From: Candidatus Omnitrophota bacterium
GTDB taxonomy: Bacteria; Omnitrophota; Gorgyraeia; Zapsychrales; Zapsychraceae
Direction: 5' to 3'
DNA length: 64,000 nt
Assembly: GCA_018062515.1 (NCBI GenBank)
Contig: JAGOSC010000005.1
Coordinates: 880-64,879, forward strand
Positions 39,201 to 52,088 of the stretch are shown here, piece by piece. Positions within the stretch are counted from its first letter, which is position 1. The number at the start of each line of letters is the position of its first letter. Below the pieces are notes generated by a model. The model had not been told where the DNA came from and ran no database searches. It saw only the letters and a list, made by a program, of their open reading frames with translations. Made by a program: the position numbers and the translations under genes.

Positions 39201-42200
39201 GACGTTGGCGGAATTAAGACAACGGCTCATTTAACAAAACGTGATGGTGTTGAAGGTTATGTTATTAACGGTGAAAAAATTTGGATTGGAAGCGCGACCG
39301 TAGCTCCGTGGTTGGTATTATTGGCAAAAACAGGCGAGGCTACTGATCGAGATTTAAATAAATTTGCATTTTTCCTAGTCCCGTTTCGGGATCAAGATGG
39401 TAAATTCCAAAAAGGAATTGAAGTTCATGAAATGGATTTATTGGGAATGCGGGGAATTGGCAACAGCCATATCATTATGAAAGATGTATTTATTCCCAAA
39501 GAAAATATATTAGGTGAAGTTGGTAAAGGATTTAAAACCGCTATGCACGCCATGGATAGCGGGCGTATTTTTGTTTCCTCTCGAGGATTGGGCGTGATAA
39601 GCCACGCGGTGGAGAATGCCAAAGAAGCTTTAAAAGAAGCATTGCGAGAAAATCCGAACTTGCCCCACGCTCAAAATTATATTTCTCAGATTGACTTAAT
39701 GGAAGCCGAACGGCTAAGCGTGCGGGCTATGCTGCAAAAAACATCTGACATGAATGACCGAGGCAAACGCATGACTTATGAAACGGCGATCATGAAATGG
39801 ATTGCCGGAGAAGTTGCTGCCGACATTGCTCAGCGTTCCTACGATCTAATTCACACCATCTCATATAATCCATCACGATGGGCGCATTCCGAACGGGTTT
39901 TGCGGGATTCGCGGCAAATTCGTATCGGCGAAGGGACGCCGCAAATTATGCAACGTATCGCTGGTCTTAAAATCCGACGTCAAATGAAAAAAAAGTTAAC
40001 ACATTTATCAAGTGACATTATTTTACAGGATGCCCTAAAACAAATTCTCGACGAAAAAGAAAATGATTCTGTGCCTACCCGTCTGAATATTCTGTTTAAT
40101 ATAGCTCTGGCCGCATACCTCAAAGCGATTAAAGATGGACAATTTGATATTACGCCCGTCGAGCCATATGGCATTGAATTGGATTTGGCTAATTTAGAAG
40201 CCTTGCGTATGCGTGTGAATGATTTTCAAAAAATGCTCACACAAATGGCGCAATCTGGACAACCTTTTCCTTATGGAAATGCTGTTCAGATATTTATGAA
40301 TCAGAAGTATGTCGAAGCTGAGACGATAGTTCATAATATTTTTACACAATTAAGTTTTAAGACCGAATTGGAAGAAATAAAAGACTATGCTATGATCGCT
40401 TCACTGCAAGTCGAAGAGCTTCGCAAACGTTTTAAAGAAACCGGCGGAGCGATCACACGGGAAGAAGCGCAACAAATAGTAAAAGGTGCAAAGCCAGAAG
40501 AGGTTGCAGTTGTCCTTGAGCAAATAGCATATCAGTCAAGCCTTTATGGGCCTGTCAACGATCCTGCCATTAACAGAGTTGATCCAAAAATTTATGAATC
40601 TTTAATTGGAATTCCTGGTCAAGCGCCGTTTGTCCGCGGATTGTTTCCTTCAGTTACGCAGCGCGCTGCTGGCCGATGGCCGACGGTACGACGTTATGGT
40701 TCGTATGGAACTGCGGAAGAATCAAACGCCAATCTTAAAAAACAATTAGAAGCGGGTGTTACTGGATTTAGTATTGCTTTTGATTTACCGACTCAAAATG
40801 GTTATGACACAGGTCATCCTTTAGCTGTTGGAGAAGCTGGCCGCGTCGGTATCGCCATTAACACATTGCAAGATATGGAAGATCTTTTTGATGGACTGCC
40901 TTTAGAGAAAATTAGTACATCAATGACCATTAATCCAACCGCGCCAATTCTTTTTGCCATGTATGTGGCTGCAGCGCGTAAGAAAGGCGTGCCAGACAAA
41001 TTAATTGCCGGAAGCGTTCAAAATGATAGCTTGAAAGAATACACGGCGCGTAATACGTATGTTCTACCTTATAAAGGTATGATGCGCATGACCACAGATG
41101 TATTTCGTTGGACGAAAGACAATTTGCCGCGATTTAATACGATTACGATTTCTGGTTATCATATCCGTGAATCCAACGTCGATGCGGTTAAAGAAATTGC
41201 TTTTACGATAACGAACGCGCTTCAATATGTCGCCGAATTAAAACGCAAAGGTCTAAGCCGTGATGAAATCGCCGGATCATTGGCCACGATGGCTTGGTTT
41301 ATCAATTTGAAAATGAATACGTTTGAAGAAGTCGGAAAACTTCGCGCACTCCGACGGGTATGGTCGAAAATTGTCCGTGATGGATTAGGCATTAAACCTG
41401 AAAATGTGACTGATCCTAAGCTCAAAGATGTGTATCAAAAAGCAACGAACGCCCGGGTTGCAACCTGGTCGGGTGGAAGCGAAGTCCGGTTACCGTACGC
41501 AACGACACTGAATTTTGCCCGTAACGCTATCCGTGCTTTTAACGCACCGTTAAGCGGCGTTCAAAGTTGGGACGGAGCAGCCTTTGATGAATCCATCGGA
41601 ATACCGACGGATTTTGCTCAAGAAGAAGCTATGCTTCGGCTTTTCGCGGCACAGTCGGAAACAGGCCTTATGGAATTAGATGATCCATTCGGCGGATCAT
41701 ATTTCTTGGAAGCTGAGACAAATCGAATTGAGCAAGGAATTTGGAATGAATTATCTGAATTATCACAAAAAGATTCATTCTTGGATGTTCTCCAATTTAT
41801 GGTCGATGAACGAACGCGCTTAACTGATCAGGACCGAATAGATTTAGAAGGGGGACAACGAAAAATCGTCGGGTACAACATTTCCACCGACGGGGCAGAT
41901 GCTTATCCTCAACCCAAAGCTCGGCCGATGAACACCGAAAATTTCGATGTAAAACAGGGCAAAAGATTAAAGAAAGTTTTGGAAACTCGCGATAATGACG
42001 CTGTACAATCCGCCTTGGATGAACTTGAAAAAGCATTAAAAAATGAAACTGAAAATGTCCTGCCATATATTTTTAAAGCCGTCGAAGTTTACGCTACGGT
42101 TGGAGAGATTAGTGACCGCATGCGACGCATATATGGCGCCTCCGACGGAAAGACTCCATGGAATGCGCAACCTGTTTGGAAAGATTTGAAAGACAAAGAA

Positions 42201-45200
42201 TGGACTCCTCCAATACAAGAGAAGCCAGAAATTTTTGATCAAGATATACGGAACTTTATCGAAACACAAAAAAATCTTATTGGGAATAGCTATCAAGAAA
42301 TTTATGACCGAGGGATTGCCCGCGGATATTTCTTGGCTGGCGACATGCCATATGTTAGACATTTGCATGTTGAAGAGCGCCCCGGGGAGTATCCATATAC
42401 ACGCGGAATTATTAAGCAGCGACCAGAAAAATTAAATAACATTAGTGGATATTTATTAAGAGAAGCTGGGATGGATGGAATGCAGGAATTGGCTTTGAGT
42501 TTATTTGCTGCTAAAAAGGAAATTGAAAAAGGAAATACTCCCAGCGAACGTGCAGACATTGCCAATCAAATCCGTATTGTGCTTTCTTCCAGCGATAATT
42601 TTATGGAAGAAACCGCTCGAATATTTTTAGCACGTAGAATGTGGGCTGAAATGCTCAAAGAAATGGGAATCACCGATGAAAATGCATTGCAATTGATCGT
42701 CGGTGTTAAAACCGATGCAACCACATACACGGAAGATAAACATTGGCTGAATATTAGCCGCGGCACACGTCAAGCATATCAAGCTTATTTAGCCGGTGTT
42801 GATCCGCAAGATATTATCATTACCCGTTTTGATGCTCCTTATGGCCATACAGATCAAACTCGATTAGCCGAACAAATTGCCAAAGATACTCTCGATGTAT
42901 TCCGTTATGAATTACCCAAAAAAGTTCAAAATCCTTTAAGCGGAATGTTTGCTTTAGAAGCTAAGATCGAAACAATGGAAGGTGAATTAAAAGCTGAATT
43001 AACAAAACTTGAAGATTTGTCATCTGATAAAAAATCAATATCTATTTCCGCAGAATCTGAAATGAAAGCCCTTATACCTGTTACCAATGTTACTGGATCC
43101 ACGGGTGTTCCAACTTGGTTAACTCCGTCATTAGCGAATTATCTGATCACTTCACTTTTACATTCGCAGGCTGTTCAGCTAGCCAAAGTTACCGCCGGAT
43201 TGACTCCAAAAGTAGGCGAGAATATTAAAACCAGTTCGACGAAATATTTTCCGCCAATGAATACCGAGGCCATGGGTATGAAACTTCTACCGCCATCAGA
43301 ACAAGTCACCATTGATGCCTTAGCCTCTGATTCAGAGGATTTAAGAATTGCAATTGCGGACGCATGGTTCAATCAAGCTGCAAATTTATATACAAAACTT
43401 TTAGGCGCGCTTCATCTTAATAACAGTAATCGTCATATTACAAAACTCCTCAGAGGTTTAGCAGCGGCTAATTTAAGTGTGAATGCTGAACAATTTTCAA
43501 AAATTGCTGAAAAATGGTCAATTATTTCTGAAGGCGATCAATTCACTATTCAGACGGATAATGGATCACAACTGAATATTATCCGTGATACTGATCACCA
43601 AGGGAAAATGGGCATTGAATTGGCGGGAAATGTTTCAGAAATAATGCGGTATGTTTCACAGTATACACTAAAAAATAAAATGACTAAAAAAGATAAATTA
43701 CGTATTCTCGTCGCTAAACCAGGACTTGATGGTCATGATGTCGGTGCACGAACAATCGCCAATGGCTTTCGTGACGCCGGCTTTGATGTAATTTATACGG
43801 GATTGCAAAACACCCCGGAACAAATTGTGGAAACAGCTCGCCAAGAAAATATTGATGTCATTGGGTTAAGCATTCTTTCTAACGCTCATAATTCGATTGG
43901 ACCAAAAGTCGCTAGCCTTTTAAATAAGAATGGAATGGATGATGTTTTTGTCGCCATGGGCGGAATGATTCCTGACGATGATCAGCGTAATTTATTTCGA
44001 AAAAGCGCGGTCAACGCAATCTATATTGCCGGTACAACCATGCAAAAGATTGTTGACGATATCAACCATTGGAATGAATGGCGGGGGAAATCAGATAAAA
44101 TAAAAATCACAAATGATCATCAGTTTACGGCAACATTATTCGATGGAAGTTCAGTCGAAGTTGTTGTCATCAATAAGGAAATTCCAACAGCTAAACCGGT
44201 CACGGACGTAGAAGAAACGGAAATTCCTCAAACTGCTTTAGCCGTGCCAACAAAACTAGGCCCATTGCATCGATCAAATATTCCCGTCGTTGAAGGCGTT
44301 TGGAGCGATGATCCAGAAATTCGAAACCGTGCTCTACAACACTATGCTTTAGCTGGAGACATATTGTTAGAACAGGTCATAAAAACGAGTCCAGTACTGG
44401 GACGATTTATTATTCCGGTTTCGAATGCCGTTTCTCCTCATATTGAACACGCCACTGTTGCCTCAGCTGGAATTGCTTTAACACCCGAACATTTTGAACA
44501 AGCCTGGGAGGCTAATGGAAACCCTCATCGTTCCAATGTACCGGAAGACGTCCGTGCAGAAGAATTTGAAGTTATAGTAACAATGCCCGATGGAAGTAAG
44601 CGAATTTTGGATATTCTTCGTGATAAAAAGGATGACTTTGAAGCTGGCGATATTGTCCGAAGAAAGATAGACGTCTCACACACGTTGGTTGAAGCATGGA
44701 ATAAAAAAGCTAAAACCAACCCTAAAGCCAAAGATCAAGAAGCAGAATGGTTAAATATGACCATAAAACAAATTCTTAATCCGCCGTTTGCTTCAAATAT
44801 TTTTCCAGCTAATGCGATTGTGATAAAGGTTCAAAACAGAAATAGTGAATTGGACCGAGGTATTATTGAACTTGATCAAGAATTAAATATTTACGTGAAG
44901 GTTCTCGACGTCACCCCATTTAATCAACAAACTGTCGACGGAAAATCATTCATTAAAGCGGATGTCATCGTTAAAGATAAAGAAGAAAACATTCTCATCG
45001 ACAGTATCGTCACAGTCATGAAACCGCTGACCATCGCTCGTCATATTAATGAATACAGTGAAGCGGTGATTCAGCAAGTTGAAGTTTGGACCGACGACAT
45101 TCAAGCGGCTCACAAAGCGATTTCCGCAGCGGCTAAAGATAAAACAAATGGTATTAATGTCGTACTGCCTGTCCGTGACGGAGCGAATGGAACAAAGGTT

Positions 45201-45560
45201 TTCTTTACGATGGTGACAATCGAAGGCGGCGTCAAAGTTCTCGTTGAGTTAATTCAAAATCCAAAAGCCGCGGTTGATAACGCTTCGCTCAGCCAATACG
45301 GCGGTATCGACCTTAATCCAGCGCATTTGGATTTGCAAATCAAGCGTGATGGACGAGGAATTCCGCTTCCGGTTAATCAACAGCCAATCATCAATATGCA
45401 TATCGACGGTTTTTATCCGATTATTATTGAAATGACGCCAGTGAATTTGCCGATGTTGCTCGGTTTCGCGGATGAAAATATGCCTGCGGATGAAACAGAT
45501 GATTATTCTCAATCAGAATTAAACGCCAGAGAACCTGAAGATTTAAGTTATTTAAATTAA
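35142..45560 (+). CDS. Giant fusion protein C (3472 aa): leader + shared N module + acyl-CoA synthetase + partial ACAD + ACAD + B12-dependent acyl-CoA mutase barrel + truncated second barrel + B12-binding domain + unassigned region + shared C module
   Basis: The GTG start directly abuts the ORF B TAA, with GAGGAA upstream. 10.4-kb open frame. Motifs are in the sub-features. Confidence 0.88.
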   Translation: MIIQFKKFQLKFTYKFLCTVINIAFISTCVLPPSYAQVLSLPQPGTMLNVSPVYTPPMIKGLTIDQENPLHFQFIIDTGNEQYKDNDQLREESTRLIKYFLASLTVPENEMWVNLSPHEKDRIIPDGFGQTEMGRDLLAQDYILKQLTASLIYPEKELGAEFWKKVHDRAWKEFKTKEIPLDTFNKVWIVPEKAVIYEHERSAYVLESHLKVMLEEDYQALISNTSSTSADNQKLKDDNRQLTASIMKEIIIPEIEREVNEGKNFTNLRQIYQSMILATWYKMNLKESLLGQIYVDQNKLIGIDLDDKNVKDKIYAQYIEAFKKGVYNYIKEDYDPDQQKTVPRQYISGGFSTVGKDNATLVDLVGREIIKSSAGYVSADQYKRISKGLKPSGDQFRTDVQLLENGNNGIINADQSMLVKIDDALQKNPSQKVHTVKGYTPAGNPIEDVLTYQDISDQSNQFAHVLKNAGIEKGDRVAVMSPVSGLEMIASLGIWKAGAVRVPFKTQWTSNEIKKYLTQTTPEAMVILNVYYDQHLLSILNEFKDLKVYIISSGETISSTPHVMTFQNSLINQTTDFLNISSDPRDLVQLAISTGTTGESKIVKQTQENFYFSTQEYSEWLDDAPQGPVVSTLPPGTYGSHSILGTVLRGRPLYIVPRLPKNQTTDEYTQTLSETLKRTNAKILFGVPTQFQALAMTGEKFPGLIGLSRGAALRDVKQLFESVTGGRVIEGYGLTEGTSSVTNPINRDKPGTVGIPSKDTTFKVINPSTQKELPIGEEGELVLKGPQVMAGYWEDPVGTKAAFTEDGFLRTGDLGSIDKDGYIKITGRLKDIIISGGDNVIPSEVEKIIKTNAAIEEVTVVGISDPGRFPDDPAFAELVEHWGEVVVAFVVPKKGMNTLNLEPSIREFAKKNLAAYKVPKKVVVLNKLPLLGDLFKIDRQQLIRGDNDNAVLVIPSAIKNIENIKAKLVLNFMINETLRNGLISQIDGEKLIPSVAIDDEQITVAKKVSDEEYELSGTKAAVVNGGRASFYIVFAQLNGKSKAFLVDNPKGITKKSVPTMGLAENNIAQVQFNRVRAKLITDNLDDSEILKAVQNKENKIIRALAISEAQRIYKMGEKYAAERRAFGQSINKFPSLKRLMDGIQTDVENINASPNPTAMLVDIANRVLQIFAARGFENNTPAVKIWREAQALHAIVTYRQSLTKTTPENISLDPEEVFKKGSWEDFGLTPDQISLKSKIRNFAENIVAPMYEELDRDGQYPLSILKKMGDAGITKPGYPKEVGGEEADTLSWAIVVEELVKAAPAFGIFSGVPHTASVPILKSGTPEQKEIVAQVVRGEIPLSYGQSEPHSGSDVGGIKTTAHLTKRDGVEGYVINGEKIWIGSATVAPWLVLLAKTGEATDRDLNKFAFFLVPFRDQDGKFQKGIEVHEMDLLGMRGIGNSHIIMKDVFIPKENILGEVGKGFKTAMHAMDSGRIFVSSRGLGVISHAVENAKEALKEALRENPNLPHAQNYISQIDLMEAERLSVRAMLQKTSDMNDRGKRMTYETAIMKWIAGEVAADIAQRSYDLIHTISYNPSRWAHSERVLRDSRQIRIGEGTPQIMQRIAGLKIRRQMKKKLTHLSSDIILQDALKQILDEKENDSVPTRLNILFNIALAAYLKAIKDGQFDITPVEPYGIELDLANLEALRMRVNDFQKMLTQMAQSGQPFPYGNAVQIFMNQKYVEAETIVHNIFTQLSFKTELEEIKDYAMIASLQVEELRKRFKETGGAITREEAQQIVKGAKPEEVAVVLEQIAYQSSLYGPVNDPAINRVDPKIYESLIGIPGQAPFVRGLFPSVTQRAAGRWPTVRRYGSYGTAEESNANLKKQLEAGVTGFSIAFDLPTQNGYDTGHPLAVGEAGRVGIAINTLQDMEDLFDGLPLEKISTSMTINPTAPILFAMYVAAARKKGVPDKLIAGSVQNDSLKEYTARNTYVLPYKGMMRMTTDVFRWTKDNLPRFNTITISGYHIRESNVDAVKEIAFTITNALQYVAELKRKGLSRDEIAGSLATMAWFINLKMNTFEEVGKLRALRRVWSKIVRDGLGIKPENVTDPKLKDVYQKATNARVATWSGGSEVRLPYATTLNFARNAIRAFNAPLSGVQSWDGAAFDESIGIPTDFAQEEAMLRLFAAQSETGLMELDDPFGGSYFLEAETNRIEQGIWNELSELSQKDSFLDVLQFMVDERTRLTDQDRIDLEGGQRKIVGYNISTDGADAYPQPKARPMNTENFDVKQGKRLKKVLETRDNDAVQSALDELEKALKNETENVLPYIFKAVEVYATVGEISDRMRRIYGASDGKTPWNAQPVWKDLKDKEWTPPIQEKPEIFDQDIRNFIETQKNLIGNSYQEIYDRGIARGYFLAGDMPYVRHLHVEERPGEYPYTRGIIKQRPEKLNNISGYLLREAGMDGMQELALSLFAAKKEIEKGNTPSERADIANQIRIVLSSSDNFMEETARIFLARRMWAEMLKEMGITDENALQLIVGVKTDATTYTEDKHWLNISRGTRQAYQAYLAGVDPQDIIITRFDAPYGHTDQTRLAEQIAKDTLDVFRYELPKKVQNPLSGMFALEAKIETMEGELKAELTKLEDLSSDKKSISISAESEMKALIPVTNVTGSTGVPTWLTPSLANYLITSLLHSQAVQLAKVTAGLTPKVGENIKTSSTKYFPPMNTEAMGMKLLPPSEQVTIDALASDSEDLRIAIADAWFNQAANLYTKLLGALHLNNSNRHITKLLRGLAAANLSVNAEQFSKIAEKWSIISEGDQFTIQTDNGSQLNIIRDTDHQGKMGIELAGNVSEIMRYVSQYTLKNKMTKKDKLRILVAKPGLDGHDVGARTIANGFRDAGFDVIYTGLQNTPEQIVETARQENIDVIGLSILSNAHNSIGPKVASLLNKNGMDDVFVAMGGMIPDDDQRNLFRKSAVNAIYIAGTTMQKIVDDINHWNEWRGKSDKIKITNDHQFTATLFDGSSVEVVVINKEIPTAKPVTDVEETEIPQTALAVPTKLGPLHRSNIPVVEGVWSDDPEIRNRALQHYALAGDILLEQVIKTSPVLGRFIIPVSNAVSPHIEHATVASAGIALTPEHFEQAWEANGNPHRSNVPEDVRAEEFEVIVTMPDGSKRILDILRDKKDDFEAGDIVRRKIDVSHTLVEAWNKKAKTNPKAKDQEAEWLNMTIKQILNPPFASNIFPANAIVIKVQNRNSELDRGIIELDQELNIYVKVLDVTPFNQQTVDGKSFIKADVIVKDKEENILIDSIVTVMKPLTIARHINEYSEAVIQQVEVWTDDIQAAHKAISAAAKDKTNGINVVLPVRDGANGTKVFFTMVTIEGGVKVLVELIQNPKAAVDNASLSQYGGIDLNPAHLDLQIKRDGRGIPLPVNQQPIINMHIDGFYPIIIEMTPVNLPMLLGFADENMPADETDDYSQSELNAREPEDLSYLN
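36440..37980 (+). other. AMP-dependent acyl-CoA synthetase/ligase domain
   Basis: TYQDISDQSNQFAHVLKNAGIEKGDRVAV, ISTGTTGESKIV (a divergent SGTTG.PKG), EGYGLTEG, LRTGDLGSIDKDGYIKITGRLKDIIISGGDNVIPSEVE, AAYKVPKKVVVLNKLP. Confidence 0.75.
38000..38700 (+). other. Partial/degenerate acyl-CoA dehydrogenase-like unit (middle and C-terminal parts only)
   Basis: YELSGTKAAVVNGGRASFYIVFAQLNG..AFLVD, PTMGLAENNIAQVQFNRV, AERRAFGQSINKFPSL. No clear N-terminal helical domain. Confidence 0.45.
38800..39980 (+). other. Acyl-CoA dehydrogenase domain (complete)
   Basis: FAENIVAPMYEELDRDGQYP, MGDAGI, SYGQSEPHSGSDVGG, INGEKIWIGSA, DLLGMRGIGNSHIIMKDVFIP, IGEGTPQIMQRIAG. Confidence 0.75.
40590..42140 (+). other. 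Adenosylcobalamin-dependent acyl-CoA mutase catalytic (TIM-barrel) domain, methylmalonyl/ethylmalonyl-CoA mutase type
   Basis: PGQAPFVRG, WPTVRRYGSYGTAEESNANLKKQLEAGVTGFSIAFDLPTQNGYDTGHPLAVGEAGRVGIAI, ISTSMTIN, LKEYTARNTYVLP (Arg retained where I recall isobutyryl-CoA mutases having Gln), ISGYHIRESN, YATVGEISDRMRRIYG. Confidence 0.8.
42300..42990 (+). other. Truncated second mutase-barrel-like segment (beta-subunit-like remnant)
   Basis: PGEYPYTRGI jumps directly to LREAGMDGMQELALSLFAAKKEI...NFMEETARIFLARRMWAEMLKEMG...TDATTYTEDKHWLNISRGTRQAYQAYLAGV. It is colinear with the start and the last third of a mutase barrel; the middle is missing. Confidence 0.5.
43690..44060 (+). other. Cobalamin-binding (B12) Rossmann-like domain
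   Basis: LRILVAKPGLDGHDVGARTIANGFRDAGFDVIYTG contains the D-x-H-x-x-G motif (43728-43745). Then IDVIGLSILS and FVAMGGMIP. Confidence 0.8.
45295..45475 (+). other. Shared C-terminal module, copy C
   Basis: YGGIDLNPAHLDLQIKRDGRGIPLPVNQQPIINMHIDGFYPIIIEMTPVNLPMLLGFADE. A 26-nt run (45339-45364) is identical to 29699-29724 in copy A. Confidence 0.85.
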
Positions 45561-45566: not shown

Positions 45567-46600
45567 ATGAAAAAGAAAATTTTCCTTATGAAAAAGTTTG
45601 TGTCTATATTAATTCTTTGCGCATTTACAATGAACACCATTGTTCCGCCGAGTTTGGCGCAGAGCATATCGTCAACGATCCTACCGCCGGTAGGTTCAAT
45701 GCTAACCATGACACCATCGTTTGTTCCGATACAAATCAAGGGTCTAACCATCGATCCCGAAAATCCTTTGCATTTTGAATTTATCATCGATACCGGCGAT
45801 TCAAAAATTGTAAACGATGAAGAATTGCGCGCCGAAACAACAAAACTGGTTAAATATTTTCTTACATCGCTGACCGTTCCGGAAGAAGATATGTGGGTCA
45901 ATCTTTCTCCTTATGAAGGAAATCGTATTGTTACCGACGGATTCGGACAAACGCAAATGGGTCAGGATCTCTTAGCGCAAGATTATATTCTAAAACAAAT
46001 CACCGCATCATTAATGTTCCCTGAAAAAGAGTTGGGCAAAAAGTTCTGGGATAAAATTTATCAGAGAGCAGAACAAGAATACGGAACTAAAGATATTCCA
46101 ACGAATACATTTAATAAAGTATGGATCATTCCGGAAAAAGCCACGGTTTATGAGCATGACGGCAGTGTTTTTGTTATCGAAAGCCGTTTAAAGGTTTTAT
46201 TGGAAGAAGATTATTTTGCCCAAAGAAAATCTGAAGGAGCCTCCGTCGATCCAAATAAATCTGTGTATACCGACATCGTTCGAGAAATTTTAATTCCGGA
46301 GATTGAAAAAGAAGTCAATGAAGGACAGCATTTTGCCAAACTGCGTCAAATTTATAATGCGATGATCTTAGCGACTTGGTATAAAACCAATCTGCAAAAA
46401 TCCGTCTTAGGACAAATTTATGTTGATCAAAATAAGTTGGAAGGCATTAACGGCGAGAATAAAAACGCTAAGTCAGATATTTATAATCAATATCTCAAGG
46501 CTTTTAAGGCCGGCGTTTATAACTATATTAAAGAAGACTATGATTCGACAACTCGGTCAACGATTCCCCGACAGTACTTCTCCGGTGGATTTGCCGCTAC
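45567..46600 (+). other. Leader plus shared N-terminal module, copy D
   Basis: MKKKIFLMKKFVSILILCAFTMNTIVPPSLA|QS, LPPVGSMLTM..GLTIDPENPLHFEFIIDTGD..FLTSLTVPEEDMWVNLSPYE..FGQTQMGQDLLAQDYILKQ..KLRQIYNAMILATWYK..AFKAGVYNYIKEDYD..PRQYFSGGF. Confidence 0.85.
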
Positions 46601-49600
46601 TTCAGATAAAGCGGCATTATCCACCGTAGTTAAGGAATCAAACCTGGGTCAAAACAACACGCCGTTATCCGACGAGGACTCAGCACTCATCGCAGATGCA
46701 TTATCCGCGCGAGGCAAACAGTTTAATACAGATATCCTCCTTAGAGAAGCCGTCTCGGGGATAACTTCCGGCGATGAAGCTATTCTTAGTTCTTTTACTG
46801 AAGATGAAATTGTGTCACGAATTCTAAATACTCCATATGATCCGATAAAAATTGGTCAGCAAATGCGGGCATGGTACGCTGATGGTAACCTCGACGCTGA
46901 TATCTTAAAAGCAACCTTGACCAATTTAAGCCGCCGTGTTGTGTACGTAAAAAGTACAGCTGATTTAAAAGACTATGAAAAAATGAAGCCTTTTTTGATC
47001 AAGACCTGGGCGCTGCTTAAAGAAGCGAATGACTCTCAGTATACCGAAAGCATTTCGATCATTGAGAGAACCATGGCCTACTCCTTATATATTTCGGATC
47101 CAAAATTATTTTATGCCGAACCGATTGAATCCATGGTCGCTGATTTAAGAAAAATTAAAGACAGCACCGCGGATGAACGTATTAAATTTGATGAAGCTTG
47201 GACACTGATTTCCAAACGCTACAGCCAAAAAAATCCGCGAGATATTTTTTATATCGCCCGGGCGATGAAACGTCCCAAGGCCTCAGATATTGTTAAAAGT
47301 TCTTTATTTAAAGATTTCATGGAATTGCGGGATGCCAAAGATCCGCTCGACCCTCAAAAAAATGAACGTTACACGCCGACGGAAAATGAGATTCAAGAGG
47401 CCATGTCGATCGGGTTCAAAGATAAATTAGAAGCCCGTGAATATGTCATTGCCAAACGAGACGCCCAATATGATGACGCATCCGTACTTACGGGAATAGG
47501 GACTTTTGTGGATCCAAAAACCGGAAAAGAGACAAAAGTTATGGTTGTTGCTTTACAAAATGGAAGTGATATTAAGGAATTATTTGAAAGAAATGCCGGT
47601 TTAAACCGCCCGTGGGGATATTGGAAAGCGATCCGCGCTTTTCGTTTGGCGGAATCTACAGAGTATAGAATTCCAATTGTCACTTTTGTTGACACGAAGG
47701 GGGCGGATAACACATTACCGTCGGAAATCGCCAATCAATCGGGCGTGGTTTCCTACGCCATACAAGTTCAACAAGAGCTGACGGTTCCGTTTATTTCCAT
47801 CATCAATATCGACGGCGTAAGTGCTGGAGGCATGGTTGTCACTCAAGGCGGCGCATTATATATGATGGATTATTCGAATCGATATTTAGCTGCTCCGGCA
47901 GGGTCTTTAGATATTATCGGCAAAGCAAAAACGACTATTCCCGTCGCTGAGCAACGCGGCGTGAAAGATACAATCGGAATGCAAATCATTGAAAAAGAAG
48001 TGCAAAGTGTGTGGGGAGATGCTTTTCATGCGGACGCGAAAAGATCATTGGAAGAATTAAAAACCATTTCCGGAATTATCCCTGAAGCGCTCGGTGGTGC
48101 GCATCGATTCCCTGAACTTTCTTATGAAATGATAGGCGATGTCATTCACAATTACTTAAAGGAAAATGCCAACAAAACAGTTGCGCAGCTTAAAGCCCAG
48201 CGTCATGACTTTTTCCGTCGATTAGGTGGAATTCCTGAAAAAGATTTTAGAATCGTCGACGATCAAGATGTCCCAACCTTGACCAAATCCATCATCACAC
48301 CGGATGAATTTGCACAGTTGGTGGAAACTATTCTTGACAATAAACAAAATACCGAACGTATGCTCCATGCGTATCGCCAGTACACTTTTACACTGAAATC
48401 AGCGAAACAAAAAAAAGAGGTTGTCGCTGTATGGATGAAAGTTTTTAGAGCTAACCGCAGCTGGTTTGATAATCGCTGGATGGTCAAAGTTTTAAATGCT
48501 TCGTTAACAGAATTTGAAAAGAAGGGAACGCAAAATGCTAAAACTCTTAAAGAGGCGATGATCAAGAGTTTCTTTCCGGAACCGCGCAGTATTGCTGATC
48601 GTCTCGAACAATTTGTCGACCGCAAAAAAGATGGAAGTTTGGAGATTATTGAAGAATTAAATGCGAATTTAGCCGAGACACCCATCATCGATTTTGATGA
48701 AACCATTCATGAAGCCTATCCCTTTTTGAAGATTGATGGCCAGGATATTGCGGCCAAGTTTGACCAATTCCGCAAATTAACCGGCTCATTAACCGGCGTT
48801 TGGACCGGTTATGTTAAAATCGGCGGAGTAAAGACGATGCTGGTTTTAAAAGATCCACGCTGGTTGAACGCCAGCGCAACAACGGCCGTCATCGGCGAGA
48901 AAGTGACCCGCGCCTTGGAAGATGTGCGTCAAAAATTTGATAAAACCAAAGAAAAAATTCCCGTGATCATGTTGACGACGGCGAGCGGTGCTCTTCAGCA
49001 AGAAGGCCAGCGCGCTATGGACCCGTTAAATAAAAAACTCGCTGGATTGGTTGAATTGAAGGAACGAAATATTCCCGTCGTGATTTTAGGTGCCTACGAA
49101 GTTTTCGGTGGTGATAGCGCCTCCGACGCGACATATCAAGATGCTGATCTTTTACTATTAGAAAAAGGGACAAGAAAAGGATTCACCGGCCACCCGACGC
49201 TGACCGGAGAAAATGATCGACGTAAGAAAAAAGGTGTTAAAGATACTTCGCAAAATGAGGTTGTGCCATTAACCGTTTTGCCTTTTCCATATCAGACTGA
49301 TCAGTTCTTAGACCGGCTTGGATTTATCGATGGAATTGTGACTGTCGAGCAAGAAACGCCTTTATTACAAGCTTTCTTACAAGACGTGACTAATAAAGAA
49401 CTGACTGTTAAATCCGAAGAAATTAAAGAACTTTTAAAAACCTTTAAAGACAAACGTGAAATGCGAGTAAAGCTTGTACGCGCCTTGGAACGAAAACCAT
49501 TTAAGACGACGTTTCAAAATGGAAATGAGGCTGAAGTTTTTAATCTGCGAAATAAGGCAAGACTATTGATGAATCAGCCAGGCATTGGCTGGCGTTATGA

Positions 49601-52088
49601 AAAGCCCGCAACAGGCCAAGAAACGGTGAATTCAGATGAAGCCATGCTGACCAACGTTTATGAAAATGCTGAAACGATGTATCAAAATTTGCCGCAAGAT
49701 ATTGAAAAATTTATGATGAGTACGGCATCGAAAATTAACGGCGGTGAAGCTGTAATGAATGATCAAAAAGCGATTACGGACATGATGTCCTTAATCGGAG
49801 AAATTTATGAAAAAGAAATGGACGGCCTGACGACGAAAAATTATCACAATCATATGCATAATCTTTCTGTCTCATTTGGAAGTTTAATTCTCGCCCAAAA
49901 TGCAAATTTAATTAAAGATAAGAATGATTTGATTATCGTCTTTTTAGGATCATTGTTTCATGATTTTCATGTGCGCGATGTCCGTCCTTTGCGTGAACGC
50001 GGCCCGGCAACGCCCGCCTTGGTTAATGAAACATTAGGTATTGAAGGATCAGGTGGGCAGCTCCCTGATTTATTAGCAATAGATGGATTCGTTTATAAAA
50101 ATCCAGCTATTGCCAATGCGCGTTATGGAGTGGTCGGAACCGATGTTAAAAAATCGGCCCGGGAAATCTATCAAACTTTAACTGGTAATGATGGTTCAAA
50201 TGGAATTTATAATGAAATTGCCGCCATTATACGGCGAACTGATTTTTCATCGGATCTCCCGCCAGCTATCGATAAGTATAAAAACCGTACTTTTGTTGTC
50301 CGCGATTTTATGGATGCAAAGGTTAATGAATGGTCACAAACGAAATCAGAAATATCCGACACTGATTTAACGCAACTCATTAATCAGGTGGAAAAACAAT
50401 ACCAGGATATTTATACTGATATGGCTCGGGACAAAGAATTGACTCCTGTAGGAAAAAGGGAAGTTTCCGAGAAGTGGGTAACACGTCAGCGTAATATTGA
50501 ACTGGCCTTCTTAAATGCTTTAACTAAAGTCAGATCTTCTCGACGATTAAATGTTTACCAAATAGCCAATCGTGTTGAGCTGGCCGATCAATCTGTTGCC
50601 TCGTGGATCGGATCCCCGGATATTGCCAAAAATATCACGTTAGGACTTAAAGAGGAACTGCCTTTTGTCAGCATCGAAGCTAATTATCCCTTATTTTATA
50701 CACCGCAATTATTACCCACACGGGTTTTATCACGCTTAAGAGATCTTCCCCTCAATTTAAGAATTAATTTCTTAAAAAATATGGAATATTTTGCCAGTTA
50801 TAGTACTGATTTCGCTAAAAATCTGAATGATGAGCAGAAAACGAAAATAAATGAATTTGTTTATAAGATGATGTTAAATTCTTTAGGAGAGTGGGACAAG
50901 ATTGAAGAAGATGTCCTTATGGAATTACGACTATATGTAGATGAAGAAGGTCAGATTAAACAACAAAGAATGGATCCTGAAGTAGTGCAGGGACTGAGAA
51001 AATCTATTATCGGAACAGTCTTTAACCTACGTGACATACATTCAATGGTTGCACAAAGAACAGTGAAAAAAATAAACTTGGCAGCAAATCAAACGATCAT
51101 TGAAGAAGGTGATGTCATTAATCACAAGAATTCAGAAGGTCTTTACATTATTATTTCCGGGGAAGTTAAGGTTATTGTCGGTGGAAGTCCTGTGGCAACG
51201 CTTAAGGCGGGGGACCATTTCGGAGAATTGGCCATCATCAGTCGCCTACCGCGCAATGCCACTGTTGTTTCCACTAGTCCTACAGTATTGGTTAAAATGC
51301 CGAGCAGATTTTTACATGGATTAAGATTAGTCAGCGATGAATTTAGTGATGCATTATATGCTGAAGCCAGAGCTAAAACGCGAAAAGGAACATCGATTCT
51401 GCCATATTGGGTTGAATCAGAAATTGTCATGAAAATGGCGCGGTCAAACCAAATATTAAATGAACAATCTAAAATTTTAGCTTGGCAGATGCCACAGTTT
51501 GTTAGGGGAAATGAAAATAAGAGCGAACGTTTAACACTCCAAAGCGTATATGACCGTTTACCAGCTGCCCTTTATGAATTTGAAAATGATTATCCTGAAA
51601 TAGGACCGATTAAGCTTGTTGGAATTGCCTCTAACGGACCGTCCGTCAGTGTTTATGTGGATCCGATTGACCATAAGTCGATTGTGGTTTTCTCCGATGA
51701 TTTCTTTAAGAGAGACTTGGACAACTTTAATCAACGTATAAAAACGGCTTTGCAGACTGCGATGAATGACGCGGCCATGTTCGCTGATGATGAATCTCCC
51801 AACGCTTTAACCAAAGGTGGTATTGATTTAAATCCCCAGGCGCTGGACCTAAAAATTAAAAATACCGGCACACAAATTCCTTTTCCCGTCGATGAGAACA
51901 TCGAACAGTTTATCGATATCAAAGGATTTTCTCCTGTCATTATTAATATAACCCCGATCCACAATCTTCCGCTTATTTTAGGAATCATTGATGGGAAGAA
52001 TGACCAATCTCCCCAAGTTAAAAGTGATCATTTTCCGTTATATAACGTGAAAGGTCGTTTTGAATCCGTCGAGGATTATCCTTCCTAA
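45567..52088 (+). CDS. Giant fusion protein D (2173 aa): leader + shared N module + AccA-like and AccD-like carboxyltransferase halves + HD domain + cyclic-nucleotide-binding domain + shared C module
   Basis: ATG 6 nt after the ORF C stop. 6.5-kb open frame. Motifs are in the sub-features. Confidence 0.88.
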   Translation: MKKKIFLMKKFVSILILCAFTMNTIVPPSLAQSISSTILPPVGSMLTMTPSFVPIQIKGLTIDPENPLHFEFIIDTGDSKIVNDEELRAETTKLVKYFLTSLTVPEEDMWVNLSPYEGNRIVTDGFGQTQMGQDLLAQDYILKQITASLMFPEKELGKKFWDKIYQRAEQEYGTKDIPTNTFNKVWIIPEKATVYEHDGSVFVIESRLKVLLEEDYFAQRKSEGASVDPNKSVYTDIVREILIPEIEKEVNEGQHFAKLRQIYNAMILATWYKTNLQKSVLGQIYVDQNKLEGINGENKNAKSDIYNQYLKAFKAGVYNYIKEDYDSTTRSTIPRQYFSGGFAATSDKAALSTVVKESNLGQNNTPLSDEDSALIADALSARGKQFNTDILLREAVSGITSGDEAILSSFTEDEIVSRILNTPYDPIKIGQQMRAWYADGNLDADILKATLTNLSRRVVYVKSTADLKDYEKMKPFLIKTWALLKEANDSQYTESISIIERTMAYSLYISDPKLFYAEPIESMVADLRKIKDSTADERIKFDEAWTLISKRYSQKNPRDIFYIARAMKRPKASDIVKSSLFKDFMELRDAKDPLDPQKNERYTPTENEIQEAMSIGFKDKLEAREYVIAKRDAQYDDASVLTGIGTFVDPKTGKETKVMVVALQNGSDIKELFERNAGLNRPWGYWKAIRAFRLAESTEYRIPIVTFVDTKGADNTLPSEIANQSGVVSYAIQVQQELTVPFISIINIDGVSAGGMVVTQGGALYMMDYSNRYLAAPAGSLDIIGKAKTTIPVAEQRGVKDTIGMQIIEKEVQSVWGDAFHADAKRSLEELKTISGIIPEALGGAHRFPELSYEMIGDVIHNYLKENANKTVAQLKAQRHDFFRRLGGIPEKDFRIVDDQDVPTLTKSIITPDEFAQLVETILDNKQNTERMLHAYRQYTFTLKSAKQKKEVVAVWMKVFRANRSWFDNRWMVKVLNASLTEFEKKGTQNAKTLKEAMIKSFFPEPRSIADRLEQFVDRKKDGSLEIIEELNANLAETPIIDFDETIHEAYPFLKIDGQDIAAKFDQFRKLTGSLTGVWTGYVKIGGVKTMLVLKDPRWLNASATTAVIGEKVTRALEDVRQKFDKTKEKIPVIMLTTASGALQQEGQRAMDPLNKKLAGLVELKERNIPVVILGAYEVFGGDSASDATYQDADLLLLEKGTRKGFTGHPTLTGENDRRKKKGVKDTSQNEVVPLTVLPFPYQTDQFLDRLGFIDGIVTVEQETPLLQAFLQDVTNKELTVKSEEIKELLKTFKDKREMRVKLVRALERKPFKTTFQNGNEAEVFNLRNKARLLMNQPGIGWRYEKPATGQETVNSDEAMLTNVYENAETMYQNLPQDIEKFMMSTASKINGGEAVMNDQKAITDMMSLIGEIYEKEMDGLTTKNYHNHMHNLSVSFGSLILAQNANLIKDKNDLIIVFLGSLFHDFHVRDVRPLRERGPATPALVNETLGIEGSGGQLPDLLAIDGFVYKNPAIANARYGVVGTDVKKSAREIYQTLTGNDGSNGIYNEIAAIIRRTDFSSDLPPAIDKYKNRTFVVRDFMDAKVNEWSQTKSEISDTDLTQLINQVEKQYQDIYTDMARDKELTPVGKREVSEKWVTRQRNIELAFLNALTKVRSSRRLNVYQIANRVELADQSVASWIGSPDIAKNITLGLKEELPFVSIEANYPLFYTPQLLPTRVLSRLRDLPLNLRINFLKNMEYFASYSTDFAKNLNDEQKTKINEFVYKMMLNSLGEWDKIEEDVLMELRLYVDEEGQIKQQRMDPEVVQGLRKSIIGTVFNLRDIHSMVAQRTVKKINLAANQTIIEEGDVINHKNSEGLYIIISGEVKVIVGGSPVATLKAGDHFGELAIISRLPRNATVVSTSPTVLVKMPSRFLHGLRLVSDEFSDALYAEARAKTRKGTSILPYWVESEIVMKMARSNQILNEQSKILAWQMPQFVRGNENKSERLTLQSVYDRLPAALYEFENDYPEIGPIKLVGIASNGPSVSVYVDPIDHKSIVVFSDDFFKRDLDNFNQRIKTALQTAMNDAAMFADDESPNALTKGGIDLNPQALDLKIKNTGTQIPFPVDENIEQFIDIKGFSPVIINITPIHNLPLILGIIDGKNDQSPQVKSDHFPLYNVKGRFESVEDYPS
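47200..48225 (+). other. Carboxyltransferase alpha (AccA-like) domain
   Basis: IARAMKRPKASD, NRPWGYWKAIRAFRLAESTEYRIPIVTFVDTKGA, SGVVSYAIQVQQELTVPFISIINIDGVSAGGM, IIPEALGGAHRFPE. It is colinear with E. coli AccA as I recall it, but the glycine-rich GEGGSGGA motif is altered. Confidence 0.7.
48690..49330 (+). other. Carboxyltransferase beta (AccD-like) domain, divergent, no zinc ribbon seen
   Basis: GYVKIGGVKTMLVLKD, AVIGEKVTRALE, IPVIMLTTASGALQQEG, IPVVILGAYEVFGGDSASDA, KGFTGHP, YQTDQFLDRLGFIDGIV. It is colinear with AccD. FMGGSMG is replaced by WLNASAT. Confidence 0.6.
49790..50300 (+). other. HD-domain (metal-dependent phosphohydrolase-type)
   Basis: NYHNHMHNLSVSFGSLILA....VFLGSLFHDFHV gives the H...HD pattern. 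Confidence 0.55.
51010..51330 (+). other. Cyclic-nucleotide-binding (CAP/PKA-type) domain
   Basis: NQTIIEEGDVINHKNSEGLYIIISGEVKVIVGGSPVATLKAGDHFGELAIISRLPRNATVVSTSPTVLVKM is the classic beta-roll with the FGE(L/I)A...R.A(T/S) phosphate-binding cassette. Confidence 0.75.
51813..51990 (+). other. Shared C-terminal module, copy D (most divergent)
   Basis: KGGIDLNPQALDLKIKNTGTQIPFPVDENIEQFIDIKGFSPVIINITPIHNLPLILGIIDG, followed by a polar tail. Confidence 0.8.

What the first reader, a model, noticed from the sequence alone, without database searches (positions are those of the whole stretch)
47200..51330. ORF D couples inverted-order carboxyltransferase halves to HD and cyclic-nucleotide-binding domains; no biotin components in the window
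An AccA-like half precedes an AccD-like half, which is the reverse of fused CT domains in propionyl-CoA carboxylase beta-type proteins. The glycine-rich oxyanion motifs are altered in both halves (GEGGSGGA to DGVSAGGM; FMGGSMG to WLNASAT). No biotin carboxylase or BCCP is encoded anywhere in the 64 kb. Downstream lie an H..HD phosphohydrolase-type domain and a canonical cNMP-binding cassette (FGELAIISRLPRNATV). The CT may act as a decarboxylase or transcarboxylase, or as a non-catalytic acyl-CoA binder. The cNMP domain suggests that the complex is allosterically regulated by cAMP or cGMP.
Basis: partly seen in the sequence, partly recalled or inferred. Interest (0 to 1): 0.65.

Follow-up and report, generated by a model that had tools for sequence, protein, structure and literature searches.

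The report
Modular Omnitrophota enzyme polyprotein: carboxyltransferase plus phosphodiesterase
ORF D is one of four adjacent, almost cysteine-free giant enzyme fusion proteins in an uncultured Omnitrophota bacterium; it carries a rare reversed-order carboxyltransferase that is evolutionarily tied to a B12 mutase, and a separate cyclic-nucleotide phosphodiesterase-like sensor unit that probably does not regulate the carboxyltransferase.

Summary
The domains are real. ORF D (45567-52088, 2173 aa) has an AccA-like half, then an AccD-like half, an H..HD domain and a canonical cNMP-binding domain. No biotin protein is encoded in the window.

Three parts of the interpretation do not hold:
1. The cited beta "oxyanion motif" is the wrong loop. 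The true Gly-Gly (E. coli AccD G204/G205) is intact. Only the alpha hole is altered (G206 to Ala).
3. The alpha-to-beta carboxyltransferase occurs in relatives without that unit, but repeatedly fused or adjacent to MeaB/methylmalonyl-CoA mutase/B12 modules.

ORF D is therefore a two-cassette cargo protein. It belongs to a large Omnitrophota family (more than 2400 proteins) with a shared N-terminal signal plus a 400-aa module, and an 80-aa C-terminal module. The family has almost no cysteine and carries D-x-A-M junction motifs.

The four tandem giants together carry an ethylmalonyl-CoA-pathway-like domain set. The carboxyltransferase most likely acts on methylmalonyl- or propionyl-CoA, possibly without biotin. 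This is inferred, not shown.

The parts
45567..52088 (+). ORF D, 2173 aa. In NCBI it is named 'MAG: cyclic nucleotide-binding domain-containing protein [Candidatus Omnitrophica bacterium]'.
   Evidence: P0001, 100% identity
45567..45662 (+). N-terminal Lys-rich segment and hydrophobic helix ending in ..PPSLAQ. It looks like a signal peptide or signal anchor. It holds the only Cys of the protein.
   Evidence: AF2 helix at residues 2-24
45663..46781 (+). N-module of about 370 aa. It is shared at 48-56% identity with ORFs A, B and C and with more than 2400 Omnitrophota proteins. Its fold has no recognisable relative.
47199..48236 (+). Carboxyltransferase alpha (AccA-like) half. The hole-2 motif is S752-A753-G754-G755. 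The GGAHR motif is kept (residues 843-847).
48237..48686 (+). Linker of about 150 aa between the two halves. It has no Cys and therefore no AccD zinc ribbon.
48687..49466 (+). Carboxyltransferase beta (AccD-like) half. The WLNASAT loop is at 1099-1105. ASGALQQEG at 1139-1147 carries an Arg->Leu change found only in ORF D. The hole-1 Gly-Gly in FGGDSAS (1180-1186) is intact.
49635..49646 (+). Junction motif D-E-A-M (residues 1357-1360) between the CT cassette and the PDE-like cassette.
49704..50924 (+). All-alpha class-I-PDE-like (HD superfamily) domain. Candidate metal site: Y1426-H1427-N-x-x-H1431, H1465-D1466, and candidate D1559.
50931..51392 (+). Cyclic-nucleotide-binding (CNB) beta-barrel domain. 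Phosphate-binding cassette FGELAIISRLPRNATV lies at 51219-51266.
51423..51776 (+). Alpha/beta domain of unknown function. It is the conserved third part of the PDE-CNB cassette.
51768..51779 (+). Second junction motif D-A-A-M (residues 2068-2071), 16 aa before the C-module.
51816..52010 (+). C-module (GGIDLNP...GFSPVIINITPIHNLPLILG). It is shared with ORFs A-C and the whole family, and contains a hydrophobic stretch at residues 2123-2141.
22019..29941 (+). ORF A (2640 aa): N-module, HpcH/HpaI (malyl-CoA-lyase-like), MaoC hydratase, crotonyl-CoA carboxylase/reductase-like domain, C-module.
29958..35141 (+). ORF B (1727 aa): N-module, two acyl-CoA dehydrogenase units, C-module.
35142..45560 (+). 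ORF C (3472 aa): N-module, acyl-CoA ligase, acyl-CoA dehydrogenase, methylmalonyl-CoA mutase, B12-binding domain, C-module. It ends 6 nt before ORF D.

Best explanation
ORF D is a modular cargo polyprotein of an Omnitrophota-specific family. Members have a signal-like helix, a conserved ~370-aa N-module, variable enzyme cassettes, a conserved ~65-80-aa C-module, and almost no cysteine. ORF D carries two independent cassettes.

(1) A single-chain alpha->beta carboxyltransferase. It belongs to a small clade found only in giant acyl-CoA-enzyme proteins. That clade is repeatedly fused to, or (as here) placed directly after, a MeaB/methylmalonyl-CoA-mutase/B12 unit. It most likely handles the mutase's substrate pair, methylmalonyl-CoA and propionyl-CoA. 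The acyl-CoA enolate hole is intact and the biotin-side hole is degraded. The likeliest chemistry is therefore biotin-independent decarboxylation of methylmalonyl-CoA (inferred). It would work inside a four-gene pathway similar to the ethylmalonyl-CoA pathway or to succinate-to-propionate fermentation.

(2) A self-contained signalling cassette. It consists of a divergent class-I-type cyclic-nucleotide phosphodiesterase domain, packed against its own CNB domain and a small alpha/beta domain. The CNB domain senses cNMP for the neighbouring PDE-like domain, analogous to cGMP-stimulated PDE2. It does not sense for the carboxyltransferase.

Shown: domain identities, folds, motif states, co-occurrence patterns, cysteine exclusion. 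Inferred: substrates, biotin independence, direction of regulation, export.
For: Architecture:
- The N- and C-modules are shared by ORFs A-D and by more than 2400 proteins with diverse metabolic cargo.

Carboxyltransferase:
- Homology to AccA/AccD.
- Only 5 of 1.84 billion representatives reach E<1e-30.
- Relatives carry MCM+B12+CT (P0132, P0135), 2xMeaB+MCM+B12+CT (L003), or acyl-CoA ligase+ECH+CT next to an ADH+MCM+B12+ACAD+HpcH giant (L002).
- In the window, the MCM/B12 unit ends ORF C just upstream of ORF D.
- The beta-half Gly-Gly is invariant in all six clade members. The alpha-half G206 is Ala in all six, and G207 is Pro in two.
- No biotin domain occurs in any of these proteins or their flanks.

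Cassette:
- D 1356-2085 aligns with P0002, P0003 and P0004 at 32-49% identity. The PDE-like part occurs alone in P0005-7, P0105 and P0114.
- Stand-alone ~600-aa forms exist.
- AF2 gives pLDDT 85 and pTM 0.81.
- The profile aligns NYHNxxH...HDFH to PDE2A PYHNWMH...CHDLDH. The spacing matches the PDE4B Zn ligands H238/H274/D275.
- CNB fold matches have target TM-scores (TMt) of 0.74-0.81, and the PBC Glu and Arg are conserved.
Against: - No biochemical data exist for any member.
- The alpha half of ORF D still looks largely canonical (ACCA E 2e-36, S-A-G-G, GGAHR kept). G-A variants of the oxyanion holes occur in active carboxylases. A trans-acting BCCP/BC encoded outside the 64-kb window therefore cannot be excluded.
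- ORF D alone has Leu for the Arg of the conserved SGGAR motif. This could mean reduced or lost activity.
- The PDE-like domain fails the PROSITE PS00126 signature (HDFHV, not HD-x-x-H) and gets no Pfam PDEase_I hit. Its sequence match to PDEs is sub-significant (E 0.5-1.7). Its substrate could be another phosphoester.
- Being on one polypeptide could still permit cross-talk between the cassettes.
- ATP/CoA/B12-dependent enzymes behind a signal peptide are hard to reconcile with a periplasmic location.
Confidence: 0.55

Rival explanations
1. The cNMP domain, with the HD domain, is an allosteric regulator of the carboxyltransferase. ORF D would then be a cAMP/cGMP-controlled decarboxylase or transcarboxylase.
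For: The domains lie on one polypeptide in the order CT, HD, CNB. The CNB cassette is canonical.
Against: All five closest alpha->beta CT relatives lack the cassette. The cassette recurs with ADK+PGK and other cargo, and as stand-alone proteins in housekeeping neighbourhoods. It is predicted as a compact three-domain body on its own. A family-wide junction motif lies between it and the CT. The domain next to the CNB is PDE-like, which gives the CNB an obvious cis partner.
Confidence: 0.12
2. The CT is an ordinary biotin-dependent carboxyltransferase, of the propionyl-CoA or acetyl-CoA carboxylase type. Its biotin carboxylase and BCCP partners would be encoded elsewhere in the genome. It would complete an ethylmalonyl-CoA-type assimilation pathway.
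For: The four giants hold Ccr-like, MaoC, HpcH, ACAD and mutase domains, and that pathway needs propionyl-CoA carboxylase. Both halves retain most family motifs, including Gly754 and GGAHR. G-A hole variants are active in mycobacterial AccD4/AccD5. E. coli accA and accD are themselves unlinked from accBC (abstract of PMC2831308).
Against: NCBIfam scores are far below the equivalog cut-offs (accA 123 vs 357; accD 41 vs 317). There is no zinc ribbon. G206 is Ala across the clade and G207 is Pro in P0132/P0135. No biotin domain occurs in about 145 kb of four loci (window 64 kb, L001 28 kb, L002 32 kb, L003 22 kb) or in any CT-bearing giant.
Confidence: 0.25
3. The CT pair, at least in ORF D, is a catalytically dead pseudoenzyme. 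It would serve as an acyl-CoA-binding or scaffolding module inside the polyprotein.
For: The sequence is very divergent. ORF D alone has the Arg->Leu change in the SGGAR motif. The GYRKA motif is GYWKA across the clade. The FMGGSMG loop is altered.
Against: The core is 46-49% identical to P0121 over 786 aa. 77 columns are invariant across five distant members, including the hole-1 GGD-AS and GEK motifs. This indicates purifying selection on active-site elements. The neighbouring enzyme domains score as strongly conserved enzymes (MCM 520 bits, Ccr 342 bits).
Confidence: 0.15

Closest known systems
Bacterial acetyl-CoA carboxylase carboxyltransferase (AccA/AccD, E. coli 2F9Y; crotonase superfamily), including fused AccD-AccA proteins of about 576 aa
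   Same: There are two paralogous crotonase-like halves. The beta-half Gly-Gly oxyanion hole, the GEK motif, the AccA N-terminal helix and GGAHR are conserved.
   Different: - The order is alpha->beta in one chain, with a 150-aa linker.
- There is no zinc ribbon.
- G206 is Ala.
- The SGGAR Arg is Leu.
- Scores are far below the equivalog cut-offs.
- There is no accBC nearby.
- The CT is embedded in a giant Cys-free protein.
- A near-canonical alpha->beta fusion with a zinc ribbon does exist (P0207, 625 aa). The order alone is therefore rare but not unique.
Biotin-independent CT-fold decarboxylase MdcD/MdcE of malonate decarboxylase; functionally also E. coli scpA-argK-scpB (mutase, MeaB-like, methylmalonyl-CoA decarboxylase). 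Both are cited from my own knowledge.
   Same: This is a precedent for AccD/AccA-like proteins decarboxylating a malonyl thioester without biotin. The mutase + MeaB + decarboxylase gene logic mirrors the L003 fusion.
   Different: ORF D gives no NCBIfam malonate_beta or malonate_gamma hit. There is no MdcA or MdcC. ScpB has a different (single crotonase) architecture.
Class I cyclic-nucleotide phosphodiesterases with an allosteric sensor domain (for example PDE2A, GAF-regulated)
   Different: - The host is bacterial.
- The PS00126 signature is not met (HDFHV).
- There is no Pfam PDEase_I hit.
- The sensor is a CNB domain placed C-terminal, not a GAF domain placed N-terminal.
- An extra alpha/beta domain is present.
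- Activity is untested.
'Multi-enzyme metabolic cluster' class of giant Omnitrophota proteins (bioRxiv 10.64898/2026.06.07.730766)
   Same: Many unrelated metabolic Pfam domains tile one polypeptide. An N-terminal signal peptide or TM helix is predicted. The phylum is the same.
   Different: That class was defined for proteins of 10,000 aa or more. Term searches in the paper found no mention of cysteine, acyl-CoA, mutase, carboxyl or cyclic nucleotide. Its only two mentions of 'N-terminal' concern the signal peptide, so a shared N- or C-module is not described. The D-x-A-M motif was not searched for.

Membership tests
AccA/AccD carboxyltransferase of acetyl-CoA carboxylase | Two crotonase-like CT halves recognisable by family profiles | tested here: met
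   Pfam ACCA E 2e-36; TIGR00515 accD E 1e-10; PDB AccA E 4e-23; PDB AccD E 1e-7
AccA/AccD carboxyltransferase of acetyl-CoA carboxylase | Score above the NCBIfam equivalog cut-offs (orthologue-level match) | tested here: not met
   accA 123 bits vs cut-off 357; accD 41.4 bits vs cut-off 317
AccA/AccD carboxyltransferase of acetyl-CoA carboxylase | Glycine-based oxyanion hole 1 (acyl-CoA enolate; E. coli AccD G204/G205) | tested here: met
   FGGDSAS, with G1181/G1182, aligns to PTMGGVSAS. It is invariant in six clade members.
AccA/AccD carboxyltransferase of acetyl-CoA carboxylase | Glycine-based oxyanion hole 2 (carboxybiotin; E. coli AccA G206/G207) | tested here: inconclusive
   S-A753-G754-G755 replaces S-G-G-A. 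The first position is Ala across the clade, and the second is Pro in P0132/P0135. G-A variants occur in active enzymes.
AccA/AccD carboxyltransferase of acetyl-CoA carboxylase | AccD N-terminal Cys4 zinc ribbon | tested here: not met
   There is no Cys in residues 888-1045 and one Cys in the whole protein. The ribbon is not universal among AccD proteins.
AccA/AccD carboxyltransferase of acetyl-CoA carboxylase | Works with biotin carboxylase and BCCP | not testable with these tools
   None is present in the 64-kb window or in the related loci. The rest of the genome is not available.
Biotin-independent malonate decarboxylase MdcD/MdcE | Match to the malonate_beta/gamma models and association with MdcA/MdcC | tested here: not met
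   ORF D gives no TIGR03133 or TIGR03134 hit at E<=1. No Mdc genes were seen in the window.
Class I cyclic-nucleotide phosphodiesterase (PF00233) | All-alpha class I catalytic fold | tested here: met
Class I cyclic-nucleotide phosphodiesterase (PF00233) | Metal-binding His/His-Asp/Asp set | tested here: inconclusive
   YH1427NxxH1431 and H1465-D1466 are invariant or nearly invariant in 14 homologues. They align to PDE2A, with spacing 34 vs 36. The fourth ligand (D1559?) is assigned by spacing only; the model's coordinates could not be inspected.
Class I cyclic-nucleotide phosphodiesterase (PF00233) | PROSITE PS00126 H-D-[LIVMFY]-x-H-x-[AG]-x(2)-[NQ] and a Pfam PDEase_I hit | tested here: not met
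   The sequence is HDFHVRDVRP. There is no PF00233 hit at E<=1.
Cyclic-nucleotide-binding domain (PF00027) | Profile match above the gathering score, beta-barrel fold, and phosphate-binding cassette with Glu and Arg | tested here: met
Omnitrophota N-module/C-module cargo proteins (defined here) | Signal-like helix plus ~370-aa N-module, GGIDL...LPxLLG C-module, and near-absence of Cys | tested here: met
   48-56% identity to ORFs A-C and 42-59% identity to the best 119 hits of a family of more than 2400. Cys is 0.05% here and 0.067% in the family, against 0.85% in the window's other proteins.

The most novel reading that the evidence does not exclude
The signal peptide, the conserved N- and C-modules, near-total cysteine exclusion and D-x-A-M junctions may mark a dedicated Omnitrophota export or sorting route. 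That route would move whole cytoplasm-type pathways out of the ordinary cytoplasm. Here the pathway is an ethylmalonyl-CoA-like acyl-CoA route with a biotin-free carboxyltransferase and its own cNMP phosphodiesterase. The destination could be a membrane-bounded or surface compartment, or a host or prey cell. The polyproteins would be cleaved at the junction motifs into working enzymes.
Probability: 0.2. Interest if true: 0.92.

Novelty: new variant of a known kind. Interest (0 to 1): 0.7.

Why it matters
- It corrects a tempting but unsupported model of a cNMP-regulated carboxylase.
- It gives a testable candidate for a second lineage of biotin-independent carboxyltransferase-fold enzymes, tied to B12 mutases.
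- It points to a bacterial, CNB-coupled relative of the class I phosphodiesterase fold. By my own knowledge, that fold is regarded as typical of eukaryotes.
- It exposes sequence rules of a very large, barely described protein family in an uncultured, possibly predatory phylum. The rules are shared end modules, cysteine exclusion and junction motifs.
- The family packages central-metabolic enzymes behind signal peptides. This raises the question of where these pathways operate.

Tried and rejected
Led nowhere:
- The word-indexed homologue search with the CT core found a single relative. With the HD-like profile it found only 8. The exhaustive HMMER search was the informative one.
- The cluster look-up gave no names for any relative.
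- The genome-contig scan found only 3 loci. Their submitters labelled them Planctomycetales, Planctomycetia and Actinomycetes. I treat these as submitter labels, not as taxonomy.
- The VMKM at residue ~1954 (nt 51426) was considered as a biotinylation site. I rejected it because the context is not BCCP-like and the site lies inside the conserved cassette.

Considered and rejected:
- That altered glycine motifs prove inactivity. The holes use main-chain amides, and S. aureus AccD (RMGSMG) and 9m70 (FMGASMG) vary in the FMGGSMG loop.
- That the order inversion is unique. P0207 is a near-canonical alpha->beta fusion.

Not resolved:
- The exact pathway. The ethylmalonyl-CoA, 3-hydroxypropionate-like, itaconate and succinate-to-propionate routes could not be told apart from domain content.
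Full report
**What is there**

The flagged interval 47200-51330 lies inside one ORF, 45567-52088 on the + strand, encoding 2173 aa. Profile searches confirm three of the four claimed domains:
- Pfam ACCA at residues 635-887 (E 2.4e-36).
- NCBIfam accD at residues 1041-1272 (E 1e-10; Pfam Carboxyl_trans is just at threshold).
- cNMP_binding at residues 1837-1917 (47.6 bits, cut-off 27.5).

No Pfam or NCBIfam model matches the H..HD region. The protein is identical to an NCBI entry named 'MAG: cyclic nucleotide-binding domain-containing protein [Candidatus Omnitrophica bacterium]' on a 64,894-nt contig.

**Biotin components**

I scanned all 36 window ORFs of 120 aa or more against Pfam. None has a Biotin_lipoyl or biotin-carboxylase domain. 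A six-frame motif scan found no BCCP-like MKM context. It covers only 64 kb of an unknown genome.

**Catalytic motifs of the carboxyltransferase**

Alignment to solved structures and a clade alignment give the following.

Alpha half:
- E. coli AccA E-G-G-S-G206-G207-A corresponds to D749-G-V-S-A753-G754-G755.
- The first hole residue is therefore Ala and the second stays Gly.

Beta half:
- By the chain numbering of 2f9y_B (304 residues, the native length), G204/G205 are the Gly-Gly of PTMGGVSAS. This aligns with EVFG1181-G1182-DSAS in ORF D.
- That the oxyanion holes are G206/G207 (alpha) and G204/G205 (beta) is my recollection of Bilder et al. 2006. PMC2831308 confirms only that both subunits have glycine main-chain oxyanion holes.
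- A 2026 preprint on mycobacterial AccD4/AccD5 places hole 1 at residues ~170-187 and hole 2 at ~405-429, and shows G-A variants in active enzymes. This agrees with the mapping.
- The FMGGSMG loop itself varies in bona fide AccDs (S. aureus RMGSMG; 9m70 FMGASMG).

Other differences:
- There is no zinc ribbon. Residues 888-1045 contain no Cys.
- GYRKA is GYWKA across the clade.
- The Arg of SGGAR is Leu in ORF D only (ASGALQQEG).

**How rare the arrangement is**

An exhaustive HMMER search of 1.84 billion cluster representatives with residues 545-1330 gave only five proteins at E<1e-30: ORF D itself, P0121, P0130, P0131 and P0132. P0135 is slightly weaker.

Among the best 150 hits:
- 63 are beta->alpha fusions (median 576 aa).
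- 78 are alpha only.
- 9 are alpha->beta. These are the six clade members, one near-canonical 625-aa AccA-AccD fusion with a zinc ribbon (P0207), and two proteins with a CitE/HpcH-like lyase inserted between the halves.

The inverted order is therefore rare but not unprecedented.

**What the carboxyltransferase travels with**

Architecture of the relatives:
- P0121 (46-49% identical over the whole core) goes straight from the CT into the C-module, with no HD or cNMP part.
- P0132 and P0135 are methylmalonyl-CoA mutase + B12-binding + CT.
- A 4013-aa ORF in L003 is AprA-like methyltransferase + 2x MeaB + mutase + B12 + CT, flanked by the same N- and C-modules as ORF D.
- P0130 is 2x acyl-CoA ligase + enoyl-CoA hydratase + CT. 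It sits next to a giant gene with ADH, mutase, B12, ACAD and HpcH domains.
- In L001 the neighbours are a Ccr-like ADH gene and an HpcH+MaoC+ligase+ACAD gene.

The window's own operon:
- ORF A has an HpcH/HpaI lyase, a MaoC hydratase and a crotonyl-CoA carboxylase/reductase-like domain (TIGR01751, 342 bits, cut-off 379).
- ORF B has two acyl-CoA dehydrogenases.
- ORF C has an acyl-CoA ligase, an ACAD, a methylmalonyl-CoA mutase (520 bits) and a B12-binding domain. It ends 6 nt before ORF D.

The same domain set is therefore conserved across four genomes while the fusion pattern is shuffled. This is classic evidence for a shared pathway. The repeated fusion or adjacency with MeaB/mutase/B12 points to methylmalonyl-CoA and propionyl-CoA as the CT's substrates. 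The full set resembles the ethylmalonyl-CoA pathway (Ccr, mutase, ACAD, MaoC hydratase, malyl-CoA lyase, propionyl-CoA carboxylase). Succinate-to-propionate and related routes are not excluded.

No biotin domain occurs in any CT-bearing giant or its flanks. The acyl-CoA-side Gly-Gly is invariant. The biotin-side hole is Ala in all members and Pro in two. A biotin-independent decarboxylase is therefore my preferred reading, by analogy to MdcD/MdcE (own knowledge). It is an inference.

**The 'HD' and cNMP domains**

D 1356-2085 is a mobile cassette:
- It aligns end to end with P0002 (49% identity; that protein's cargo is adenylate kinase and phosphoglycerate kinase), P0003 and P0004.
- Its first ~400 aa occur alone in P0005-7, P0105 and P0114.
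- Stand-alone ~600-aa proteins consist of just this domain plus a CNB domain behind a hydrophobic N-terminus (P0123-P0126). They lie in housekeeping neighbourhoods without any CT.

Conserved residues:
- Invariant in all 14 aligned homologues: H1465, D1466, F1467, R1470 (HDF.R), E1488-T1489 (ET), R1557-T1558 (RT) and D1674.
- Nearly invariant: N1425, Y1426, H1427, H1431 and H1468.

Structure:
- AlphaFold2 on a 14-sequence alignment gave pLDDT 85.2 and pTM 0.81 for the 706-residue cassette. It has an all-alpha domain, a CNB beta-barrel and an alpha/beta domain packed together.
- Foldseek confirmed the CNB fold.

Sequence support:
- A profile of the domain against all PDB sequences at E<=10 hit almost only PDE2A and PDE10A (47 of 48 hits, E 0.5-1.7).
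- It aligned NYHNxxH...HDFH onto PYHNWMH...CHDLDH.
- These are the positions of the PDE4B Zn ligands H238, H274 and D275.

Limits:
- The PROSITE class I signature is not met.
- Pfam PDEase_I does not hit.

I call it a divergent class-I-like PDE domain, not a member of the family. The CNB phosphate-binding cassette keeps its Arg in all 14 aligned homologues and its Glu in ORF D, P0002-4 and P0124/5.

The simplest mechanism is a cNMP-sensing, cNMP-hydrolysing unit that works on its own. The CNB domain has a cis partner, and its distribution is independent of the CT.

**The frame around the cargo**

Shared end modules:
- ORFs A-D share a Lys-rich/hydrophobic N-terminus ending ..PPSYAQ and a ~370-aa N-module (48-56% identity).
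- They also share a ~65-80-aa C-module (GGIDLNP..L.LQIKRDG.G.PLP....I.GF.PVII.I.P...LP.LLG) with a hydrophobic stretch.
- More than 2400 database proteins share the N-module. All of the listed hits that carry an organism name are Omnitrophota/Omnitrophica MAGs (one is named only 'hydrothermal vent metagenome').
- Their cargo includes phosphoglucomutase, UGPase, PGK, TIM, GAPDH, enolase, isocitrate lyase, malate synthase, kinases and response regulators.

Cysteine exclusion:
- The four giants contain 4 Cys in 10,012 aa (0.04%). The other window proteins have 0.85%.
- 119 family members have 0.067% (0.032% beyond residue 45), and 76 of them have none.
- Ordinary AccA/AccD homologues have 1.3%.

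Junction motif:
- A short motif D-x-[AS]-M-[LTVI] is about six-fold enriched in the family (313 observed vs 54+-5 in shuffles).
- All five occurrences in ORFs A-D lie at domain junctions. One lies between the CT and the PDE-like cassette, and one lies 16 aa before the C-module.

By my own knowledge, these features are typical of proteins that are exported or translocated unfolded, and possibly processed. For CoA-, ATP- and B12-dependent enzymes this is puzzling.

Literature:
- A 2026 preprint describes a 'multi-enzyme metabolic cluster' class among Omnitrophota proteins of 10 kaa or more, with predicted signal peptides and TM helices.
- A 2023 preprint proposes cleavage of giant Omnitrophota proteins.
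- Neither mentions cysteine or acyl-CoA, and the 2026 preprint mentions neither mutase nor cyclic nucleotide. Neither describes a conserved N-terminal module. C-terminal modules and the junction motif were not searched for in the 2023 preprint.

**Verdict**

The mechanistic reading is partly wrong. ORF D is not a cNMP-regulated carboxylase. It is a two-cassette member of a large Omnitrophota cargo-protein family:
- One cassette is a mutase-linked alpha->beta carboxyltransferase, possibly biotin-independent.
- The other is an autonomous PDE-like/CNB signalling unit.

Interest is raised mainly by the context, which deserves experimental follow-up. That context is a shuffled but conserved acyl-CoA pathway encoded as cysteine-free, signal-peptide-bearing polyproteins, plus a bacterial class-I-like phosphodiesterase fold.

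Noticed in passing
window 22019-52088 (ORFs A-D): Four tightly packed giant ORFs (gaps of 0-16 nt) share a ~400-aa N-terminal module and a ~80-aa C-terminal module. Together they carry Ccr-like, MaoC, HpcH, ACAD (x3), acyl-CoA ligase, methylmalonyl-CoA mutase/B12 and CT domains. This is an ethylmalonyl-CoA-pathway-like set.
   Followed up: partly
window 22019-52088; proteins P0002-P0120: Cysteine is almost excluded. The four giants have 4 Cys in 10,012 aa, against 0.85% in the other window proteins. 119 family members have 0.067%, and 76 of them have none beyond the signal helix. Ordinary CT homologues have 1.3%.
   Followed up: partly
window 49635-49646 and 51768-51779; also ORF A residue 1746, ORF B residue 1610, ORF C residue 1748: The short motif D-x-[AS]-M-[LTVI] sits at inter-domain junctions. 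In the family there are 313 occurrences against 54+-5 expected. It is a candidate polyprotein processing site or linker signature.
   Followed up: partly
L001 1-18439; L002 1-21733; L003 863-12904: Other genomes carry the same acyl-CoA domain set, but it is split and fused differently among giant genes. L003 fuses 2x MeaB + mutase + B12 + CT. Some of these proteins (P0130, P0132, P0135) lack the N- and C-modules but are still Cys-poor.
   Followed up: partly
P0164 (959 aa), P0211 (971 aa): These proteins have a CitE/HpcH-like (malyl-CoA-lyase-like) domain inserted between an AccA-like and an AccD-like half. This is another unusual link between a CT and a lyase.
   Followed up: no
P0123-P0126; L006 8001-9794; L007 6974-8782: Stand-alone ~600-aa PDE-like + CNB proteins have a hydrophobic N-terminus and lie in housekeeping contexts. 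In P0123 the CNB phosphate-binding cassette is degenerate.
   Followed up: partly
window 1-2086: The left edge has low GC (33%) and carries an ORF6N/Rha-like gene and a tyrosine integrase (930-2012) that abuts tRNA-Pro(GGG) at 2013-2086. It looks like the end of an integrated mobile element.
   Followed up: no
window 53849-55177 and 59502-61166: There is a full-length serpin (E 3e-127). There is also an HTTM / vitamin-K-dependent gamma-carboxylase-like protein with a VKGC lumenal domain. Both families are best known from eukaryotes.
   Followed up: no
window 51423-51776 (ORF D residues 1953-2070): A conserved alpha/beta domain follows the CNB domain in the cassette. It is confidently predicted but has no assigned function. 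It contains a VMKM string that is not in a BCCP-like context.
   Followed up: no
L006 2680-5676: An RtcB RNA ligase gene is interrupted by an intein. It lies near a stand-alone PDE-like/CNB gene in the MAG GCA_974485825.1.
   Followed up: no
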